From the human T2T-CHM13v2.0 reference genome, Homo sapiens, in assembly GCF_009914755.1 (NCBI RefSeq), contig NC_060935.1: a stretch of DNA of 64,000 nucleotides; one strand, given 5' to 3'. The notes under the pieces are model-generated. The model had not been told where the DNA came from. It was given only the letters and a program-made list of their open reading frames with translations, and did no database searches. The position numbers and the translations under genes were made by a program. Positions 4,063-64,000 of the stretch are shown here, piece after piece. Numbering within the stretch: position 1 is the stretch's first letter; every line of letters starts with the position of its first letter.

Positions 4063-4816
4063 GGCACACAGGAATTGGGTTGGGACTCAGTAGATCAGTA
4101 GATTTAGATCTCCCAGCTTAGTCTCATCTCCATAGTGTGGGTGGAGTAGTACTCACACTATTTAAATTATTTTTATTTCACTACCTGAATCCCCTCAGCA
4201 AGTATAGTTTAATTCACCTGAGTAATACGCTTATGCGAGGGGATTTCTCCATGGGCCTTTTGTTTTTGCTCCTGCTGGTGATCTGATTTTAAATGTGAAC
4301 GTGCCATTGCTAAGAGTTTTTGTTCTATGTATTATTCTGTGTGGAAAATTTCTTAAATGGGATTATTGAAGTATACTTCATTATTTATCTTCTGGCAATT
4401 TATCAACAACAGCAAATATCATTCATTATTGTTTGGAGGACAGAACTATTTTTATATTCTTTAATTAAAAATGGCTTTGACATTTTCAAATTCAGAGGGA
4501 AGTTGATAATTTAGTGCTGTATGATAGGACCTTTAGTTGGTCTGAATGTCACATAATTGTACAAATTGCTGTTAAAGTATATTATTACTTATTTTCTGAG
4601 AGGTAGAGGGACTTGGTTATCCTGGGATTGCATAATTATTGGTTCACTAGAACTACAGATGAGTGAAAAGAAGGGTTAGATACTCTCTAGTTCACTTTTC
4701 TTCCAGTGCAGGGAACATTCTATGGGGTTCCGAACAGATATAATAAGCTCATAATAACAGTGGCCATTGATTGAACTCTTTCTATCAAACAATGTGAAAA
4801 ACATTAGTAGAGGTGA

Positions 4817-6048
<1,232 letters not shown>

Positions 6049-43601: not shown

Positions 43602-43620
43602 ATCCTGTGCGCAGGTGGCA
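43602..43620 (+). CDS. PTPRJ: PTPRJ exon 2, a 19-nt microexon (ILCAGG + 1 nt; end of signal peptide)
   Basis: Polypyrimidine tract and ...tttcag|ATCCTGTGCGCAGGTGGCA|gtgagt. The translation matches the known PTPRJ N-terminus (...RLGQ-ILCAGGT-PSPIPD) and joins exon 3 in frame (A|CC = Thr). Confidence 0.93.
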
Positions 43621-43658
43621 GTGAGTACCCTTTTCCTCTCTATTCTTGTGTTGTTCGC

Positions 43659-43677
43659 TACTGCCCCCTAATGGACA
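43659..43677 (-). promoter_or_regulatory. Candidate CTCF site
   Basis: The minus strand reads TGTCCATTAGGGGGCAGTA, a close match to the CTCF core CCASYAGRKGGCRS. Confidence 0.5.
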
Positions 43678-43736
43678 CACAGCAACATTAACAGCAATGT
43701 GAAATGCTAATTTATTAAAACCTGCTCGGTTTCCAA

Positions 43737-44085
<349 letters not shown>

Positions 44086-44453
44086 TGAAAGAAAAAATTT
44101 TAATTAATTGTGCAATCATGATGAAAATTTATATTTTCTGTAATTTTTTTCTAGCCTCATCTGTGGGCGATTTAACTTAGTTGAAATTGTAATACATTAT
44201 TTGTATATTGTTTATGTGCTGTTATCCTTTAAGTATTTTCTTGTGTTGCTACATTGCCCTTTTGTTGCTACATTGCTACATTTAAAGAATGGGGTGGAAG
44301 ATCGTCATAACCTTTGGAAAATGAGACCTGGACTCCCGCATGTTTTGCTTTCATGCACAGGGCTGAGTCCCAACTGCTGACAGTGCTGGTTCATTCCCTG
44401 GTAATAAAATGAGAAAAATAAGGATATGACTAGAAGTTTTTTAAGGAAGCTTA

Positions 44454-45000
<547 letters not shown>

Positions 45001-45228
45001 TCATGGAAGCATATATGGGCAGATCTTGCTGAAATCTTCTAATAAAGCAAATCTCAATTAATAATGGTAATTAGAGCCTGTGCAAACAATGGGAAGAGTA
45101 CTGCCGTTGGTTTTTCTTCCTGTTAATTAGTTTAATAAATAAACTGGTGGGTACCTTGTACAGGCTTGAATCACTGCTGCAGAAGAACACTTCTATTCAA
45201 ACATCTACCGTAGGTAGTAGAATTGCGG

Positions 45229-46310
45229 GAAACAGAAATCATGAGCTATTTTAACTGAAAGGATTTACCCTGGGAAGTGAGAGTTTACAGAGTCATTGGA
45301 AGGGCCGCTGTATTAGTTTGCCAGGGCTGCTGTAATAAGATCAAGGTCTTGGGGGTTAGGACTTCAACATATGAATTTGGGGGTGGCGGAGCACAAGTCA
45401 GCTCATAACAGCTGGGGAGGAGGCTTTAGGCCTGGCCCTGAGAAATTACTCCCAGACTAAGGCTGCAGAACTGACCCCCTAGAGAGTCACCACCTTGGTC
45501 ATAGACAGCAAGCAGAGAGGGAGGAATCAGGAAGTCCCTGCTGTAGTTGCTGGATCCAGCGGTGAATGTTCTGAGCTGTGATCCTGGGATCAGGAAGCTG
45601 CAGCCACTGCCACAGTGTTGGTTCTAGAGCCAGGCAGCATGAGATCCAGTCATCGCATCCACACTACAGCTATAAGAAGGAGGAAGGGCAGAAGGTTGTG
45701 CTCCACCCTTTAAGGACACTTGCTAGAAGTCAGACAGAACGTCTGGTCACACTCTGTTTGACAGAAGTTAGTCACATGCAACATCTAGCTGCATGGGAGG
45801 CTGGGAAATGTGGTCTTTGTTCCCAACAGCTATGCATATACAGGGCCAAAAATCTCCAGGAGTATGATGAAGGGAAAATGGGGGAATGGAGTTTGGGGGT
45901 CAAGAGTGGTCTCTGCTGCACCTCCCTGAACAGAGACTCTAGGAGACTAGTAATGAATTCAAGATAAAGCAGCCAGTGTGGCCAAGGTTCTCCTTCAGTG
46001 CCTGAGCTCTTGGCCATAGGAGCTCACGCCTCCTCTCCTTTCCTGTGAATGACTGTGTGCAGTGTAAGCATGGAGCTTCTGCACTCTCGTGGCCAGGTAC
46101 TCTCCATGTGGCCAGAAATGGCAGTTTCTGAGGGGCTCATGTTGTAGGTGATGATACAAAGAAGAGAAAGAGAGGGATCAGTTTTTCCAAGTGTGCATTT
46201 CATTTCAGTGTAAATATTTTGTGAGGTGGGGCATCCCTGTCTCCTGGAGAAATATATTTTTAATCTAATTGTTTACTTTCTTTGCATAGCCCCTAGTCCA
46301 ATTCCTGACC
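45229..46310 (+). repeat. Intragenic duplication, copy A (end of intron 2 plus exon 3 start)
   Basis: Colinear with 62645-64000. By-eye counts: 11 mismatches in 120 nt at 45961-46080, and 2 in the last ~70 nt before the acceptor. Confidence 0.95.
45309..45410 (-). mobile_element. Internally deleted paralogue of the MLT1 LTR at 62726-63108
   Basis: Same two termini in the same flanking context, but only 102 bp long. Confidence 0.8.
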
Positions 46311-46526
46311 CTTCAGTAGCAACTGTTGCCACAGGGGAAAATGGCATAACGCAGATCAGCAGTACAGCAGAATCCTTTCATAAACAGAATGGAACTGGAA
46401 CACCTCAGGTGGAAACAAACACCAGTGAGGATGGTGAAAGCTCTGGAGCCAACGATAGTTTAAGAACACCTGAACAAGGATCTAATGGGACTGATGGGGC
46501 ATCTCAAAAAACTCCCAGTAGCACTG
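46290..46526 (+). CDS. PTPRJ: PTPRJ exon 3 (237 nt), Ser/Thr-rich N-terminal ectodomain segment
   Basis: tttgcatag|CCCCTAGTCCA...AGCACTG|gtaagc; encodes PSPIPDPSVATVATGENG...ASQKTPSST (within ORF 46226..46618). Confidence 0.96.
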
Positions 46527-46943
46527 GTAAGCATAGGCTTTTCTGCCAGTCATGTTTCTTAAAGGAAATCGGTAGAATTTATAAATGTCATGTTTTCCAA
46601 ATACTGTTCTTCTTTTAATTACCTAAGAAAATCTTTTTAAAAATTTTTATAAAGATAGTAATGCATATTCATTATATAAAACATAGACAAGAAAAGAATA
46701 ACAAGTAAATCATTAACTGGAGATAACCATTGATCACTTGATATACGAGTTTTATAATTTTAAGATATATGCATGCCTGTGTGCATATGTATATACATAT
46801 ATATGTTTTATTTTGTTTTACAAATATCAAGGTCATCCTTTACATGTAGCTTCTCACCAATATATTACAAATATTCTTCCCTGTTAGTATATACATTTCT
46901 ACAGGACAGTTTTAATACCTGCCTGGCATTCTATTTTCTAAAT

Positions 46944-47134
46944 CAGGGTTGGCAGATAATAATGGTCCTTGGGCCAAATATAGATCACTTTCTGTTTTTG
47001 TAAGTAAAGTTTTATTGAGTCTGCCTATGGCTGCTTTCATGCTAGAATTGAGTAGTGGCAATGGAGAATTTGTGGCTTGTAAAGCCTGAAATATTTATTC
47101 TGTGGCCCTTACAGAAAAACATTGCTGATACCTG
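46944..47134. mobile_element. MER58A-like MITE
   Basis: cagggttggcag ... aaagttttattg ... gcctgaaatatttattctgtggcccttacagaaaaacattgctgatacctg. Confidence 0.7.
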
Positions 47135-47154
47135 GGTTAGATAATTGATTCTAA

Positions 47155-47500
47155 AACTGTGGTTCAGAGATCTCTAGGGGTCTCCTAGATTCTTTCAAGG
47201 TATTTCTGGGTATTGTTTTCATAATACTACTAACATGTTATTTGGCTTCTTTACTCTCATTTTATCATGAGTGTACAGTGGAGTCTTGCAGATTCTATAT
47301 GATTTGGGATGACACTGTCACTCTTACAGCTAATGGAATGTATGCTTTCATATTGTTTAAAAAACTTTATCTTTTTTATTTCTAATACAGTATGGTAAAT
47401 ATTAATCAATATAACCCATATAAACAAAAATTCTCCGGGAGCCTTAATAATTTTTAAGAAGTTAAAAGGGCCCTGAGACCACAGTGTTTAAGAATTACTT
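47155..47500. mobile_element. Charlie1-derived non-autonomous element
   Basis: Ends resemble those of the element at 17356-19284 (taataatttttaag ... ccctgagacc ... tttaagaattact). Confidence 0.6.
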
Positions 47501-47699
47501 GTCTAAAAGCATTGTAAATTATTTAACTGCTCCCCTGTTGTTGGGAAGGTAGATTATTTATTTATAATTTTTCATAAAAAACATTGTGATACAATAGTTT
47601 TGTTAGTTCTAGAAGTATTGATAAAATCACATACACAGTTAAAATAAGTCATTGAATTATTTCTAGGGTAATATGAGAAACTTTTAGAAATTCCTAAGG

Positions 47700-48022
<323 letters not shown>

Positions 48023-48059
48023 TTAATTATTGTTACAAAAATTTGGGCTTAGAGGTTGG

Positions 48060-52280
<4,221 letters not shown>

Positions 52281-52395
52281 AATATTGTTAACTGTGCTTT
52301 CTTTTCTGAACTTAAGAACTTGCTTTTCCAAAACCTTCCCAGAATCCCTGTATGAATCAACAAAATTTAGTTCTTAACACATTTCTCCTTCTTTA

Positions 52396-52812
<417 letters not shown>

Positions 52813-52865
52813 TTATAAAGAGGAAATTCAAGCTTGGAGGGGCCTTCTGGCATGACGTTTATTGA

Positions 52866-53238
<373 letters not shown>

Positions 53239-53869
53239 TCCTGCAGTTTTTTTATTGATTGGATGAATGTTTGTATATCCCATGAGCCAGATGAGGCACA
53301 CTGTCCATGCACATAGCAAGATGGTAACACTTACACCATCTTTACTCTTTTGGGATTAGTCCCAAGCTCCTTGAGAATGACTGCCGTATCACCTGGGTTT
53401 TACTCTTCGGTTTCTGGTTGTTACTCCTCAGTCTTCAGCTCAATTAGGATGCATCCATTTGGTAGTTTTACAGTTAGTAACCCTGATGGCTTCCACTGGT
53501 TTACGATCTTGTACATCTAAGATGATGAAACTAAGGTTCAGAGAGGTGAGATGACTTTGAGTAAAATTGCATGGTGAGCAACTAGCAGAATTGGACCCTG
53601 AAACCAGATTTCTAATGTCCAAATCTTGTCCCTTGTTTATCATATCATGGTGGTTCAATAATAATTCTTCGTGTTTAGTGTGGTGTACTAGAGCTATCAA
53701 CAGAGAAACTTGAGACTGAGAGGTTTGAAGGGACTAATTCTAGGTCACACAGCTAATGGATGGAGCAGGTCTTTAATCCCAGATCTGGGTTCCAAGACCA
53801 GTCCTTTTCTCTTTACGCTGCTCTGCCCCTGCTATCTTTATTTCAGAAAACCACTGAGCTTCCTTCTAG

Positions 53870-54240
<371 letters not shown>

Positions 54241-54537
54241 GGTCTCTTTTTGTATCAGCTTCTATACAGACTTAACCCCATTTTTAAGTCACAGCCAGCA
54301 TGGTCAACTTCTGTCAGTTTTGCTTCTGTTCCAAAGGCTTCTGTTTTACTAACATACACACATACATGTATGCATATGGATTTAAATAAATTCTGGTGCA
54401 GGGAAGTCTAGGAGGCAAAGAGAGATAAAACTCTGTGATTGGAAAGTCACTTCTGGAAACTAGACATATAGAGCAGACCTCACTCTTACATTTCTTTTTG
54501 AAGTGCAATAATTTTTTTTTTTTTTTTAACAATATAG

Positions 54538-54801
54538 GGCCCAGTCCTGTGTTTGACATTAAAGCTGTTTCCATCAGTCCAACCAATGTGATCTTAACTT
54601 GGAAAAGTAATGACACAGCTGCTTCTGAGTACAAGTATGTAGTAAAGCATAAGATGGAAAATGAGAAGACAATTACTGTTGTGCATCAACCATGGTGTAA
54701 CATCACAGGCTTACGTCCAGCGACTTCATATGTATTCTCCATCACTCCAGGAATAGGCAATGAGACTTGGGGAGATCCCAGAGTCATAAAAGTCATCACA
54801 G
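54538..54801 (+). CDS. PTPRJ: PTPRJ exon 4 (264 nt), fibronectin type III domain
   Basis: poly-T...aatatag|GGCCCAGT...ATCACAG|gtaaga; GPSPVFDIKAV...LTW...GLRPATSY...WGDPRVIKVIT has the FNIII Trp and Tyr-corner motifs. Confidence 0.97.
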
Positions 54802-58502: not shown

Positions 58503-58721
58503 ATGCCAGCAATACAGAGAGAAGCCGGGCAGGGAGCCCCACCGCCCCTGTGCATGATGAGTCCCTCGTGGGACCTGTGGACCCATCCTCCGGCCAGCAG
58601 TCCCGAGACACGGAAGTCCTGCTTGTCGGGTTAGAGCCTGGCACCCGATACAATGCCACCGTTTATTCCCAAGCAGCGAATGGCACAGAAGGACAGCCCC
58701 AGGCCATAGAGTTCAGGACAA
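58503..58721 (+). CDS. PTPRJ: PTPRJ exon 6 (219 nt), linker plus C-terminal half of an FNIII fold
   Basis: gaaacag|ATGCCAGC...AGGACAA|gtaggt; DASNTERS...GLEPGTRYNATV...IEFRT; codon CGA at 58604-58606 is Arg326. Confidence 0.96.
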
Positions 58722-61564: not shown

Positions 61565-62725
61565 GTGAGTTCATGCCTGGCTCTCACCACCCTTTCCTGC
61601 TGTCCTGCTCCGTGCCAGGCCCAGACACAGGATGCATGATGTAGTAATGGTGACTGTTGGCTGACCACACGCCAAGCTTCGTGTGACATGCTTTCCTTGC
61701 ACTGGCACATTGTATGCTCACAACAGCCCTGTGATGTGGTTGGAAGTAGCCTTATTTTATAGATAGGAAGCCAAGGCTGAGAGAGGTGCTAGACAGGTAT
61801 CACAGCTGGAAAGTGGCAGAGGTGAGATTAAGCCTCTGGTATTTCTCACCTGGAGCCTGCGCTTGTAACTCTCTTTCCAGTGTGGAGGAGACCTAGAGTG
61901 AATTGATACAGGGAGACAAAAATGACCTGGTATTCATATCCCCTTGTGTCTTGGGTGCTGACATTATAACGAATCACTGGCACAGCTGTATCTCATCTTT
62001 GTTTGTTTAAATGTCCCTTAAAAATAAGATTTTATGCAGCAAATAAAAAGCTTTAGGTTTCAAAGAAGGTCCGATAATGTAAAATAAAACAGTAATGGTG
62101 CACTAGTAGTACAGTGGTATAATATTGATTATATACTATTAAACAATAGTAGTGACACCAGCACTGCATTTTGCACTGTGCCATGAGATTTATAGACACT
62201 GTAGTGGCCTCCGAGGTAGGTATTGGGGTCCCCTTTTACAGATGAGGAAATGACACCCTGATGGCTGAACAGTTTGCCCAAAGCCACAGAGCTAGTGAGT
62301 AGCAGAGCAGGACTTGAACTCAGGGGTGTGTGGCTCTGGACCCAGGCTTATCCCACAAGAATGTCCATTCCTTCGCAGGAAGCACACCTTAGCATTCTTA
62401 TAGATGTATTTTGGACTGGATCTTTGGGAAAATGAAATATGCTTGCATTTCTTTACCTTTTACTCTTTTACTATTTATTAGTTAGGATTAGGTTCAGCCA
62501 CGAATAACACCACCAAAAACAACAACAACAAAACCCAAGTATCCATGGCTTAAACAAGACAGGGGTTTATTTCTCTCTCCTGTAACAGAAGCCCAGTGCT
62601 AGGCAGGATGGGGATGATAGAGGTTATCCAAGGCTCAGTTGTATGAAACAGAAACTGTGAGCTATTTTAACCAAAAGGGATTTATCCTGGGAATTGAGGT
62701 TTTGCAGAATCATTGGAAGAGCTGG

Positions 62726-63108
62726 TGTATTAGTTTGCTAGGGCTACCAGAACAAGTACCAAAGGCTGTGTGGCTTGAACAGAAATAGACTTTCTCATAG
62801 TTCTGGAGGCTGAAGGTCAAAGATTAAGGCAACGGCAGGTGTGGTTTCTTCTGAGGCCTCCCTCTTGGCTTATAGATGACTGTCTTCTCCCTCACATGGT
62901 TGTCCTTAGTCTGCGTGTGCCTATGCCCTCATCTCCCTTTATAAGGACACCAGTCTTGCTGGATTAGGGCCTACCTTCATGACCTCACATTAACTTAATT
63001 ACCTCTTTGAAGACCCTGTCTCCAAAGACAGCCACATTCTGAGGTCTTGGGGGTTAGGACATAAACATACACATTTGGGGGTGAGGGAGCACAAGTCAGC
63101 TCATAACA
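62726..63108 (-). mobile_element. MLT1 (MLT1B/C-like) MaLR solo LTR, full length
   Basis: tgtattagtttgctagggct ... ttctggaggctg ... ataaggacaccagtc ... cagctcataaca. Confidence 0.8.
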
Positions 63109-63979
63109 GTTGAGGAGCAGGCTTTAGGCCTCGCCCCAAGAAATGACTCCTGGACTAAGTCTGCAGAACTGACCCCCTGGAGAGTCACCACCTTGGTCAC
63201 AGACAGCAGAGGGAGGAATCAGGAAGTCTCTGCTGTAGTTGCGGGATCCAGGGGTCTATGTTCTGAGCTGTGATCCTGGGATCAGGAAGCTGCAGCCACC
63301 GCTGAGGTTTTGGTTCTAGAGCCAGGCAGCGTGAGCTCCAGTCATTGCATCCACACTACAGGTATAAGAAGGAGGAAGGGCAGAAGGTTGTGCCCCACCC
63401 TTAAAGGACACTTCCTAGAAGTCACCCAGTACCTCTGCTCATGCTTCGTTGAGCAAAACTTAGTCACATTGCAACATCTAGCTCCATGGGAGCTGGGAAA
63501 TGTGGTCTTTGTTTCCAACAGGTATGCACACACAGGGCTAAAAATCTGGGTGGGTATGATGAAGGGAAAATGGGGGAATGGATTTTGGGGGTCAAGACTG
63601 GTCTCTCTCTGCTGTCCCTCCCTGAACAGAGGCTCTGGGAGGCTAGTAATGCATTCGAGATAAAGCAGCCAGTGTGGCCAAGGTTCTCCTCCAGAGCCTG
63701 AGCCCTTGACCACAGGAGCTCACGCCTCCTCTCATTTCCTGTGAATGATTGTGTGCAATGTAAGCACAGAGCTTCTGCACTCTCATGATCAAGTGCTCTC
63801 TCCATGGCCAGAAACAGCAGTTTCTGAGGGGCTCATGTTGTAGGTGATGATACAAAGAAGACAGAGAGAGGGATCAGGTGTCCTAAGTGTACATTTCATC
63901 TCAGTATTTTCTGAGGTGGGGCATCCCTGTCTCCTGGAGAAGTATATTTTTAATCTAGTTGTTTACTTTCTTTGCATAG

Positions 63980-64000
63980 CCCCTGTTCCAGTTTCTGACT
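63980..64000 (+). CDS. PTPRJ: PTPRJ exon 8, first 21 nt (truncated by window end)
   Basis: tttgcatag|CCCCTGTTCCAGTTTCTGACT gives (P)PVPVSD in frame with exon 7. Confidence 0.9.

What the first reader, a model, noticed from the sequence alone, without database searches (positions are those of the whole stretch)
46290..46526. Exon 3 looks like an FNIII domain that decayed or was repurposed into a mucin-like tip, with exon divergence outrunning the intron
Seen: the first 21 nt of exon 3 (CCCCTAGTCCAATTCCTGACC) and exon 8 (CCCCTGTTCCAGTTTCTGACT) differ at 5 positions. All 5 are first or second codon positions (PSPIPD versus PVPVSD), while the adjacent ~70 intronic nt differ at only 2. Exon 3 has no Trp or Tyr (the FNIII core residues), is 26/79 Ser+Thr and has four N-glycan sequons (NGT, NTS, NDS, NGT). 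It still ends in GSNGTDGAS, echoing the FNIII F-G loop NGTEG seen in exon 6. From the recalled PTPRJ protein, exon 8 contains AESF and GPNGTEGASRT, which match exon 3's AESF and GSNGTDGASQK. Inference: accelerated protein evolution turned a folded module into a disordered, glycosylated extension. CD148 exclusion from close cell contacts is known to depend on ectodomain size, so this could tune signalling or shield a pathogen-binding surface.
Basis: partly seen in the sequence, partly recalled or inferred. Interest (0 to 1): 0.8.

Follow-up and report, generated by a model that had tools for sequence, protein, structure and literature searches.

The report
Decayed fibronectin exon copy in PTPRJ
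Exon 3 of the human phosphatase gene PTPRJ (CD148) is an old internal copy of the gene's own exon 8 that has lost its folded fibronectin-type shape and now encodes a floppy, sugar-bearing tip on the receptor.

Summary
Exon 3 (46290-46526) and exon 8 (63980-64237) lie inside a ~2.5 kb intragenic duplication, 45229-47696 versus 62645-65967. The exons align end to end: 29 of 78 residues are identical, with two in-frame gaps.

Exon 3 has lost the FNIII hallmarks:
- no Pfam fn3 hit;
- no Trp or Tyr and 10% hydrophobic residues;
- AlphaFold2 pLDDT of 23-37;
- apparently unmodelled in crystal structure 7U08.

It is not a mucin, because it has no tandem repeats.

The claim that the exon outruns the intron is only partly right. 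Mismatch is 11.0% in the upstream intron, 36.3% in the exon and 25.6% in the downstream intron. Fourfold sites (7 of 21) fit the downstream intron, not the upstream one. Pairwise dN/dS is 1.19, CI 0.65-2.24.

An excess of amino-acid change on the exon-3 side is real (34 versus 3). It suggests positive selection but does not prove it.

Across mammals this N-terminal slot is unusually changeable.

The parts
46290..46526 (+). PTPRJ exon 3 (237 nt, phase 1-1). It is a decayed copy of exon 8 and encodes a 78-residue disordered, acidic, Ser/Thr-rich peptide with four N-glycan sequons.
   Evidence: It aligns to exon 8 over its full length (151 of 237 nt, 29 of 78 aa, in-frame gaps of 9 and 12 nt). 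It has no fn3 hit at E<=10, and pLDDT is 23-37.
45229..46289 (+). Upstream intronic arm of the duplicated segment, paralogous to 62645-63979. It looks secondarily homogenised.
   Evidence: 830 of 933 aligned nt are identical (89.0%) over 45344-46289; the mismatch-rate change-point falls at 46295; the full-length match occurs at only two places genome-wide. The exon-8 copy has about 265 extra bases at 62777-63041.
46527..47696 (+). Downstream intronic arm of the duplicated segment, paralogous to 64238-65967 (beyond the window; read from L003).
   Evidence: 795 of 1068 aligned nt are identical (74.4%).. An Alu at about 64584-64919 is present only in the exon-8 copy. An Alu at about 47699-48005 abuts the end of the homology.
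62645..63979 (+). Upstream flank of exon 8, the paralogous arm on the parental side.
63980..64000 (+). First 21 nt of exon 8. The exon continues to 64237 outside the window and encodes an intact FNIII module, the parental copy.
   Evidence: Pfam fn3 E = 4.6e-5. pLDDT is 91-95 in the model. The module is present in 18 of the 20 mammalian models fetched.
43602..43620 (+). Exon 2 (end of the signal-peptide region, ...ILCAGG). It sits immediately before the variable N-terminal slot.
   Evidence: Annotation supplied with the finding; protein context.
54538..54801 (+). Exon 4, the first folded FNIII domain (FN1). It marks the downstream boundary of the variable slot.
   Evidence: fn3 E = 3.6e-9; pLDDT 75-90; 7U08 modelled from about residue 84 of the chain.

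Best explanation
Exon 3 arose when a ~2.5 kb piece of PTPRJ holding exon 8 and its flanking intron was copied into the slot between the signal-peptide exon and the first FNIII exon. The copy stayed in frame because both exons are phase 1-1.

In the lineage leading to monkeys and apes the copy lost the hydrophobic core of the FNIII fold, including the conserved Trp, the Tyr and the I-I-I-G-G-L strand. It became an intrinsically disordered, acidic, Ser/Thr/Gly-rich peptide with four N-glycan sequons. It now forms the membrane-distal tip of CD148.

This decay predates the split between New World and Old World monkeys. Later, roughly in the stem of the anthropoids, about 1 kb of the upstream intron was homogenised between the two copies. 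Gene conversion is the most likely cause. The converted tract ends at the exon edge, probably because the exon was already too diverged to recombine or because conversion into it was selected against.

Inferred, not shown: the tip acts through bulk, charge and glycans rather than through a specific sequence. It adds height and glycocalyx to an ectodomain whose size governs its exclusion from close cell contacts. It evolves at or slightly above the neutral rate.
For: Duplication:
- The alignment is collinear from 45229-47696 to 62645-65967.
- The flanks match full-length at only two places genome-wide.

Parental copy: the exon-8 module was found in 18 of the 20 mammalian models fetched. In the other two, gibbon has only its last 24 residues and the red colobus model skips the exon. 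An exon-3-like copy occurs only in a subset.

Fold loss:
- No fn3 hit at E<=10, against hits for all 5 neighbouring exon peptides.
- 0 Trp, 0 Tyr and 10% hydrophobic residues, against 19-36% in the neighbours.
- pLDDT 23-37 with no secondary structure. In the same 26-sequence job FN1 scores 75-90 and the exon-8 domain 91-95.
- The 7U08 construct contains the peptide at residues 4-81, but only 193 residues are modelled, and 192 of them align within 84-329.

Direction of change: 34 of 49 amino-acid differences are on the exon-3 side, 3 on the exon-8 side and 12 undecided.

Two-layer history:
- Mismatch is 0.110 upstream, 0.363 in the exon and 0.256 downstream.
- The change-point lies at 46295, and upstream versus downstream differ with Fisher p = 4e-17.
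- Fourfold sites (7 of 21) differ from the upstream rate (p = 0.0056) but not from the downstream rate (p = 0.28).

Decay older than the monkey split: the marmoset and squirrel monkey peptides share the derived C-terminal states (SGANDS......GTDG..SQKT.SS).
Against: - Lemur models (Eulemur, Propithecus, Daubentonia) have a different N-terminal domain in this slot and no exon-3 copy. The copy could therefore be younger than the downstream-intron distance suggests.
- The downstream intron is AT-rich (30% GC) with many gaps. Its 25.6% mismatch may be inflated by misalignment; the best 100-nt windows show 17-19%.
- The rabbit and marmot copies resemble their own exon 8 (78 of 85 and 48 of 67 residues). 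This fits either ongoing conversion or independent duplications, and I could not tell these apart without their DNA.
- That the conversion tract ends within 6 nt of the exon edge is a coincidence unless one of my two added assumptions holds.
- No functional data on the exon-3 peptide were found or produced.
Confidence: 0.6

Rival explanations
1. A single, fairly recent duplication occurred in the stem of the anthropoids, dated by the upstream intron (K about 0.12). A burst of positive selection then remodelled the folded module into a glycosylated disordered tip. On this view the exon truly outruns neutral intron divergence.
For: - Upstream intron K is about 0.12.
- Lemurs lack the copy.
- Exon 3 carries primate-type exon-8 states such as GASQ.
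- Amino-acid changes are 34 to 3 on the exon-3 side.
- Neutral simulations at K = 0.12, 0.31 or 0.45 never reached 49 amino-acid differences in 3000 runs each.
Against: - The downstream intron is 25.6% diverged, 2.3 times the upstream value (Fisher p = 4e-17).
- Fourfold sites are 33% diverged and reject the upstream rate (p = 0.0056).
- Pairwise dN/dS is 1.19 with a CI that includes 1.
- New World monkeys already carry the decayed state. A duplication dated by K = 0.12 would leave only a few million years for all the decay.
Confidence: 0.2
2. Purely neutral decay. After the duplication the extra module was dispensable and drifted at omega = 1. Only the reading frame and splice sites were kept, because a stop codon would destroy the whole receptor. 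Its present composition is a by-product with no function of its own.
For: - Pairwise dN/dS is 1.19 with CI 0.65-2.24.
- Human-Old World monkey identity is 81-82%, about what neutrality predicts (14-15 of 78 differences against roughly 11 expected; the 6.5% genomic divergence is recalled, not measured here).
- New World monkeys have a further ~21-residue deletion.
- The vole model lacks the exon altogether.
Against: - Neutral simulations need K of at least 0.6-0.76 to reach the observed 49 amino-acid differences (P = 0.017 at K = 0.60 and 0.19 at K = 0.76). That is above the downstream-intron distance (0.31) and at the top of the dS interval.
- All four sequons are kept in the 6 catarrhine sequences examined, although this is not statistically compelling.
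- The exon has stayed spliced in for more than 40 million years.
Confidence: 0.15
3. Recurrent overwriting. The slot originally held a different N-terminal domain, seen in lemurs, sloth, anteater and bat (call it FN0). It was overwritten independently in anthropoids and in Glires by ectopic copying from exon 8. On this view exon 3 is a replacement, not an addition.
For: - FN0 sits exactly between ...CAGD and FN1 in Eulemur, Propithecus, sloth, anteater and Myotis.
- No FN0 relic was found in the window or in the human genome with the lemur peptide.
- The exon-3-type label needs 3 changes on the tree, and the rabbit and marmot copies pair with their own exon 8.
Against: - The negative searches are weak. 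One query was used, and the tool itself warns that an empty answer shows nothing.
- No flanking homology that could drive such an overwriting was demonstrated.
- Predicted gene models may omit exons.
Confidence: 0.25

Closest known systems
Fibronectin type III domain (Pfam PF00041), specifically PTPRJ's own exon-8 module
   Same: They share ancestry, shown by the flanking-intron homology and a full-length exon alignment. They also share the P-x-P linker start, AESF, the VE..TN stretch and the G-x-NGT-x-GAS loop.
   Different: Exon 3 lacks the core Trp and Tyr and the hydrophobic strands. It has no fn3 profile hit, is predicted disordered and is apparently unmodelled in 7U08.
The N-terminal O-glycosylated region of CD45 (PTPRC), encoded by alternatively spliced exons A, B and C (recalled knowledge; CD45 and CD148 size exclusion read in passages of PMC10815196)
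   Same: Both are disordered, glycan-bearing tips on top of FNIII-type domains in a large receptor phosphatase whose ectodomain size controls exclusion from close contacts. Both evolve fast.
   Different: The CD45 region is Pro/Ser/Thr-rich, O-glycosylated and alternatively spliced, and it is not known to derive from an FNIII exon. Exon 3 of PTPRJ is in the selected RefSeq transcript, has four N-glycan sequons and no repeats, and has a traceable FNIII parent.
Duplicated genes whose introns are homogenised by gene conversion while the exons stay divergent, for example the primate red/green opsin genes (recalled: Shyue et al. 1994; Zhou and Li 1996; not read here)
   Same: Intron similarity exceeds exon and synonymous similarity, with a sharp step at the exon boundary.
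   Different: Here the paralogues are two exons of one gene, only one flank is homogenised, and one copy has lost its fold rather than being kept for a distinct folded function.
Disordered loop within FN3-2 of CD148 (N278-D327), described from AlphaFold and 7U08 in PMC10815196 (passages read)
   Same: It is another non-folded stretch inside the CD148 ectodomain. The same model gives it low pLDDT (25-38 at residues 388-438 of the chimpanzee sequence).
   Different: That loop is an insertion within a domain and has been described in print. The pre-FN3-1 peptide is explicitly left out of that paper's figures, and I found no statement of its origin.

Membership tests
Fibronectin type III domain (PF00041) | Significant match to the fn3 sequence profile | tested here: not met
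   0 families at E<=10 for the exon-3 peptide. Exons 4, 5, 6, 7 and 8 give fn3 E-values of 3.6e-9, 1.6e-3, 1.2e-4, 8.4e-8 and 4.6e-5.
Fibronectin type III domain (PF00041) | Conserved core Trp (strand B) and Tyr (strand F), plus alternating hydrophobic strands | tested here: not met
   0 Trp, 0 Tyr, and 8 of 78 residues in VILMFWYC. Trp to Gln, Tyr to Asp, and the I-I-I-G strand deleted or replaced.
Fibronectin type III domain (PF00041) | Seven-strand beta-sandwich fold | tested here: not met
   pLDDT 23-37 with no strands, while 4 neighbouring FNIII domains fold confidently in the same job; the peptide is apparently unmodelled in 7U08. Caveat: the alignment is shallow for this segment.
Fibronectin type III domain (PF00041) | Descent from an FNIII-encoding exon (homology) | tested here: met
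   collinear 2.5 kb duplication including both flanks. blastp of the exon-3 peptide against the exon-8 domain gives E = 1.7e-8 in a small database.
Mucin-type (PTS tandem-repeat) domain | Tandem repeats rich in Pro/Thr/Ser | tested here: not met
   no tandem repeat inside 46290-46526. S+T 32%, Pro 7 of 78.
Mucin-type (PTS tandem-repeat) domain | Dense O-GalNAc glycosylation | not testable with these tools
   One literature search listed no paper giving O-glycan sites in this peptide. Supplements were not opened.
Gene-conversion tract between paralogous segments | A block of significantly lower divergence than the adjoining paralogous sequence, with a defined boundary | tested here: met
   change-point at 46295, mismatch 0.110 against 0.276, log-likelihood gain 48.9. 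Upstream versus downstream Fisher p = 4e-17.
Gene-conversion tract between paralogous segments | Tree discordance: converted parts group by species and unconverted parts by paralogue | not testable with these tools
   No primate or other mammalian genomic DNA was available. Only proteins could be compared.
Positively selected exon (omega above 1) | dN significantly above dS on the relevant branch | tested here: inconclusive
   pairwise dN/dS 1.19 (CI 0.65-2.24); 34-to-3 asymmetry, and neutral simulations fail for K up to 0.45 but not at K = 0.76. A branch test needs outgroup DNA.

The most novel reading that the evidence does not exclude
The membrane-distal slot of CD148 is a hotspot of module turnover in mammals. 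An ancestral Cys-framed domain (FN0) was repeatedly replaced by copies of exon 8 in anthropoids, rabbit, squirrels and jerboa. In anthropoids, positive selection (omega about 2-3 on the stem branch) then turned the folded copy into a disordered glycan-bearing cap. Gene conversion kept erasing intron divergence up to the exon edge. If so, this is a datable, step-by-step case of a folded extracellular domain being adaptively converted into an intrinsically disordered glycosylated region. A plausible driver is pressure on ectodomain height or glycocalyx, or pressure from pathogens.
Probability: 0.2. Interest if true: 0.65.

Novelty: new member of a known kind. Interest (0 to 1): 0.42.

Why it matters
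CD148 is a major regulator of Src-family kinases in platelets, T cells and phagocytes. Its exclusion from close contacts is attributed to the size of its ectodomain (passages of PMC10815196; abstract start of PMC2173795 in the listing).

The first 80 or so residues of the mature protein are usually left out of structural descriptions. Knowing that this tip is a decayed copy of exon 8 has three consequences:
- It explains part of why the domain counts quoted for CD148 disagree (9 from UniProt/PROSITE and 8 from AlphaFold in Table 1 of that review; the exon-3 peptide is counted as a domain in neither).
- It warns that mouse and vole-type models, which lack the exon, and lemur-type proteins, which carry a different domain, are not equivalent to the human protein at the tip.
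- It offers a natural series for testing how tip length, fold and glycans affect segregation and signalling: intact FNIII in rabbit, half-decayed in marmot, disordered in humans, shortened in New World monkeys, absent in vole.

It is also a clean case for the general question of how folded domains become disordered regions.

Tried and rejected
- Relic of the lemur/xenarthran-type N-terminal domain (FN0). tblastn of five FN0 peptides against the window gave only chance-level hits (best E = 0.15). A six-frame search of the whole human genome with the Propithecus peptide found nothing, and the tool warns that an empty answer shows nothing.
- Distribution of FN0. The third protein search with the FN0 peptide returned only 2 proteins, both lemurs. 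Pfam gave no significant family for FN0 (best E = 0.025).
- Flanks as an interspersed repeat family. Rejected: full-length matches occur only at the two PTPRJ places. Only short internal pieces (about 45681-45823, 47020-47135 and 47213-47507) match elsewhere.
- Hidden compensated frameshifts as the cause of the amino-acid divergence. Rejected: free DNA alignment (151 of 237 identical) and codon-constrained alignment (87 differences in 234) give the same identity.
- Tandem repeats in the exon: none.
- Rfam over 44000-49000: no family at gathering score.
- Placing the anthropoid exon-3 clade on the exon-8 tree. Unresolved: it is a long branch attached at an open polytomy.
- Literature. Searches for PTPRJ with 'exon duplication', CD148 with ectodomain and mucin-like, PTPRJ with FNIII and positive selection (0 papers), CD148 with N-terminal and binding site, PTPRJ with O-glycosylation and PTPRJ with primates and rapid evolution found no description of the origin of exon 3. 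Two reviews were read in passages only (PMC6017057; PMC9818648) and say nothing on it. Subscription journals and supplements were not covered.
- Earlier findings of this scan were not open to the session.
Full report
**1. What is there**

The window is part of human PTPRJ (CD148/DEP-1). Exon 3 (46290-46526, 237 nt) has a good acceptor (...tttctttgcatag|CC) and donor (CTG|gtaagc). Read in phase 1 it gives a 78-residue open peptide.

Only 21 nt of exon 8 lie in the window. I located the window in its own genome, fetched 10 kb around exon 8 and read the whole 258-nt exon from there.

**2. The observation checks out, and the homology is much larger**

A self-comparison of the region shows one collinear paralogous segment, 45229-47696 against 62645-65967. 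It comprises:
- about 1.06 kb of upstream intron;
- the whole exon;
- about 1.17 kb of downstream intron.

The exon-8 copy carries extra sequence: about 265 bases at 62777-63041, an Alu at about 64584-64919 and a short Alu-like piece near 65774-65895.

Genome-wide, both flanks match full-length only at these two places. Only short internal pieces hit old interspersed repeats. This is therefore a segmental intragenic duplication, not two insertions of one repeat family.

The exons align end to end with two in-frame gaps of 9 and 12 nt. Identity is 151 of 237 nt and 29 of 78 residues.
- 5 differences in the first 21 exonic nt, all at codon positions 1 or 2;
- 3 differences, not 2, in the last 70 intronic nt;
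- no Trp or Tyr, Ser+Thr 25 of 78 (26 of 80 with the split codons), and four sequons;
- AESF and GPNGTEGASRT in exon 8.

**3. Exon 3 no longer encodes a fibronectin domain**

Several lines agree.
- Pfam finds no family at E<=10. The five neighbouring exon peptides all hit fn3.
- Hydrophobic residues are 10%, against 19-36% in the neighbours. The peptide is acidic, with 10 Asp/Glu and 3 Lys/Arg.
- Eleven non-anthropoid exon-8 sequences served as outgroup. Of the 49 amino-acid differences, 34 are changes on the exon-3 side, 3 are on the human exon-8 side and 12 are undecided (binomial p = 1.2e-7). The changes include Trp to Gln, Tyr to Asp and loss of the I-I-I-G strand.
- AlphaFold2 was run on the 653-residue chimpanzee protein with a 26-row orthologue alignment. 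That protein differs from human by 1 of 78 residues in this peptide. The exon-3 peptide scores pLDDT 23-37 with no secondary structure. In the same model FN1 scores 75-90 and the exon-8 domain 91-95.
- The crystallised 7U08 construct contains the peptide at chain residues 4-81. The entry has only 193 modelled residues, and 192 of them align within residues 84-329. I infer the peptide has no density, but I did not see the deposit's list of missing residues.

'Mucin-like' overstates the case. There are no tandem repeats and only 7 prolines among 78 residues.

**4. Does the exon outrun the intron?**

Yes on the raw numbers, but not for the reason proposed.

| Region | Mismatch |
|---|---|
| Upstream intron | 103 of 933 (11.0%) |
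| Exon | 86 of 237 (36.3%) |
| Downstream intron | 273 of 1068 (25.6%) |

The two introns differ from each other (Fisher p = 4e-17). The exon exceeds both (p = 2.8e-18 and 0.0013).

A maximum-likelihood change-point in mismatch rate falls at 46295, 6 nt inside the exon. With two change-points the rates are 0.11, then 0.40, then 0.255, with breaks at 46293 and 46476.

Fourfold-degenerate sites differ at 7 of 21. That is incompatible with the upstream rate (p = 0.0056) but compatible with the downstream one (p = 0.28).

Nei-Gojobori estimates are dS 0.45 (bootstrap CI 0.25-0.76), dN 0.54 (0.41-0.71) and dN/dS 1.19 (0.65-2.24). In codons 1-62, pS is 0.39 and pN 0.41.

The outlier is the upstream intron, which is too similar. 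The simplest reading is a later homogenisation, probably gene conversion, of at least 1 kb of upstream intron. It stops where the already diverged exon begins.

**5. Is there still a signal of selection?**

Possibly. Almost all amino-acid change is on the exon-3 side. Splitting dS equally therefore gives a rough omega of about 2 for that lineage and about 0.2 for exon 8. This is my arithmetic.

I ran simulations starting from exon 8, with exon 3 neutral and exon 8 at omega 0.2:
- at K = 0.12, 0.31 or 0.45, none of 3000 runs reached 49 amino-acid differences;
- at K = 0.60, P = 0.017;
- at K = 0.76, P = 0.19;
- K = 0.31 needs omega of about 3, and K = 0.45 needs omega of about 2.

So there are two possibilities. 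Either the exon pair is considerably older than both flanks, or amino-acid change exceeded the neutral rate at some stage. With 78 codons and no outgroup DNA I cannot decide between them.

In recent evolution exon 3 is not exceptional. Human versus Old World monkey identity is:

| Segment | Identity |
|---|---|
| Exon 3 | 81-82% |
| Exon 4 | 85-86% |
| Exon 5 | 83-89% |
| Exon 6 | 86-89% |
| Exon 7 | 85-89% |
| Exon 8 | 89-90% |
| Rest of the ectodomain | 93% |
| Transmembrane and cytoplasmic part | 99-100% |

The whole membrane-distal half of the ectodomain evolves at about the neutral rate.

**6. Timing**

New World monkey proteins carry a shorter peptide of about 57 residues. It shares many derived states with the human one (SGANDS......GTDG..SQKT.SS). 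The decay therefore predates the catarrhine-platyrrhine split.

The upstream K of about 0.12 corresponds to roughly that time or slightly earlier. This is an inference from recalled primate divergence values. A duplication dated by the upstream intron would leave almost no time for the decay, which again favours a two-layer history.

The downstream K of about 0.2-0.3 places the original copy somewhere between the haplorhine stem and the common ancestor of primates and Glires. This too is an inference.

**7. The slot is changeable across mammals**

I compared full-length orthologues from the protein database.

| Lineage | What sits between the signal peptide and FN1 |
|---|---|
| Catarrhines | The 78-residue peptide |
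| New World monkeys | A shortened version of it |
| Rabbit | An intact FNIII, 78 of 85 residues identical to rabbit's own exon-8 domain |
| Marmot | A partly deleted copy closest to sciurid exon 8 (48 of 67) |
| Jerboa | A fragment of such a copy (N-terminally incomplete model) |
| Vole | Nothing |
| Three lemurs, sloth, anteater and Myotis | A different Cys-framed domain (FN0) |

The second bat model, Saccopteryx, did not match the FN1 anchor used to read this slot, so I did not score it.

On a protein tree the rabbit and marmot copies pair with their own exon 8, while the anthropoid peptides form one long-branch clade. This means either continuing conversion from exon 8 in each lineage or repeated independent copying into the same slot.

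I found no FN0 relic in the window or in the human genome. These are weak negatives.

**8. How it most likely works**

Shown: a disordered, acidic peptide bearing glycan sequons sits at the far tip of the CD148 ectodomain.

Inferred: it contributes bulk, charge and glycans rather than a specific binding surface. Three facts point this way. Its sequence drifts at about the neutral rate, it tolerates large deletions (New World monkeys), and it is absent in some species.

CD148's exclusion from close contacts is attributed to ectodomain size (passages of PMC10815196). Whether this tip matters for that exclusion has not been tested.

**9. What is known**

The AlphaFold-based review of receptor phosphatase ectodomains describes the 49-residue loop in FN3-2. 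It explicitly omits 'the sequence preceding FN3-1' from its figures (passages read).

Six full-text searches, plus passages of two further reviews, turned up no statement that this peptide derives from exon 8. The library lacks most subscription journals, and I opened no supplements.

**10. Verdict**

The exon and its disorder are already annotated facts. What is new here is:
- its origin as a decayed copy of exon 8;
- the one-sided intron homogenisation;
- the lineage-specific turnover of the tip.

This is a tidy evolutionary case of moderate interest. The claim of accelerated adaptive evolution remains open.

Noticed in passing
Proteins P0027 (Ictidomys) and P0028 (Marmota): The squirrel and marmot PTPRJ models carry 4-5 tandem, near-identical copies of the FN1 (exon 4) module. 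This is another lineage-specific exon amplification at the distal end of the ectodomain.
   Followed up: no
Proteins P0047, P0034, P0036, P0038, P0041 and P0042; window 43621-54537: Lemurs, sloth, anteater and Myotis have a different Cys-framed N-terminal domain (..ATEIHF..PENxS..PGTxYxFxFxNGSSxCCQ..) in the slot where humans have exon 3. No relic was detected in the human window or genome. It has no significant Pfam family (best E = 0.025).
   Followed up: partly
window 58503-58721 (exon 6); residues 388-438 of model mdafd66f84b32: The first half of the exon-6 peptide is predicted disordered (pLDDT 25-38). This matches the N278-D327 loop described in PMC10815196, which carries the Q276P and R326Q polymorphisms at its ends.
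   Followed up: partly
L003 about 4584-4919 (= window coordinates 64584-64919); window 47699-48005: An Alu is present only in the exon-8 copy of the duplicated segment. Another Alu abuts the 3' end of the homology in the exon-3 copy, so it may mark or mask the duplication breakpoint. The subfamilies were not determined.
   Followed up: no
window 45300-45345 versus 62740-63045: A repeat that I recognise from memory as MaLR-LTR-like is shared by both copies. It is about 265 bases shorter in the exon-3 copy, so it predates the duplication.
   Followed up: no
Proteins P0009, P0010 and P0022: Predicted isoforms skip exon 4 (orangutan X2, chimpanzee isoform 7) or exon 8 (red colobus X2). This fits the cassette-like behaviour expected of phase 1-1 FNIII exons.
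   Followed up: no
Proteins P0014 and P0019: The baboon and macaque models have an odd Cys-rich stretch (…MCISCV…/…ICISCV…) inside the exon-8 domain where other primates have ITQEGAG. It could be a real local frameshift pair or an annotation artefact.
   Followed up: no
window 46478-46526: The last ~50 nt of exon 3 diverge at the same rate as the downstream intron (0.255 after the second change-point). They contain a 23-nt patch with 22 identities covering the NGT sequon, which I counted by eye in the alignment. This may be a small conversion patch or a constraint on the sequon.
   Followed up: partly
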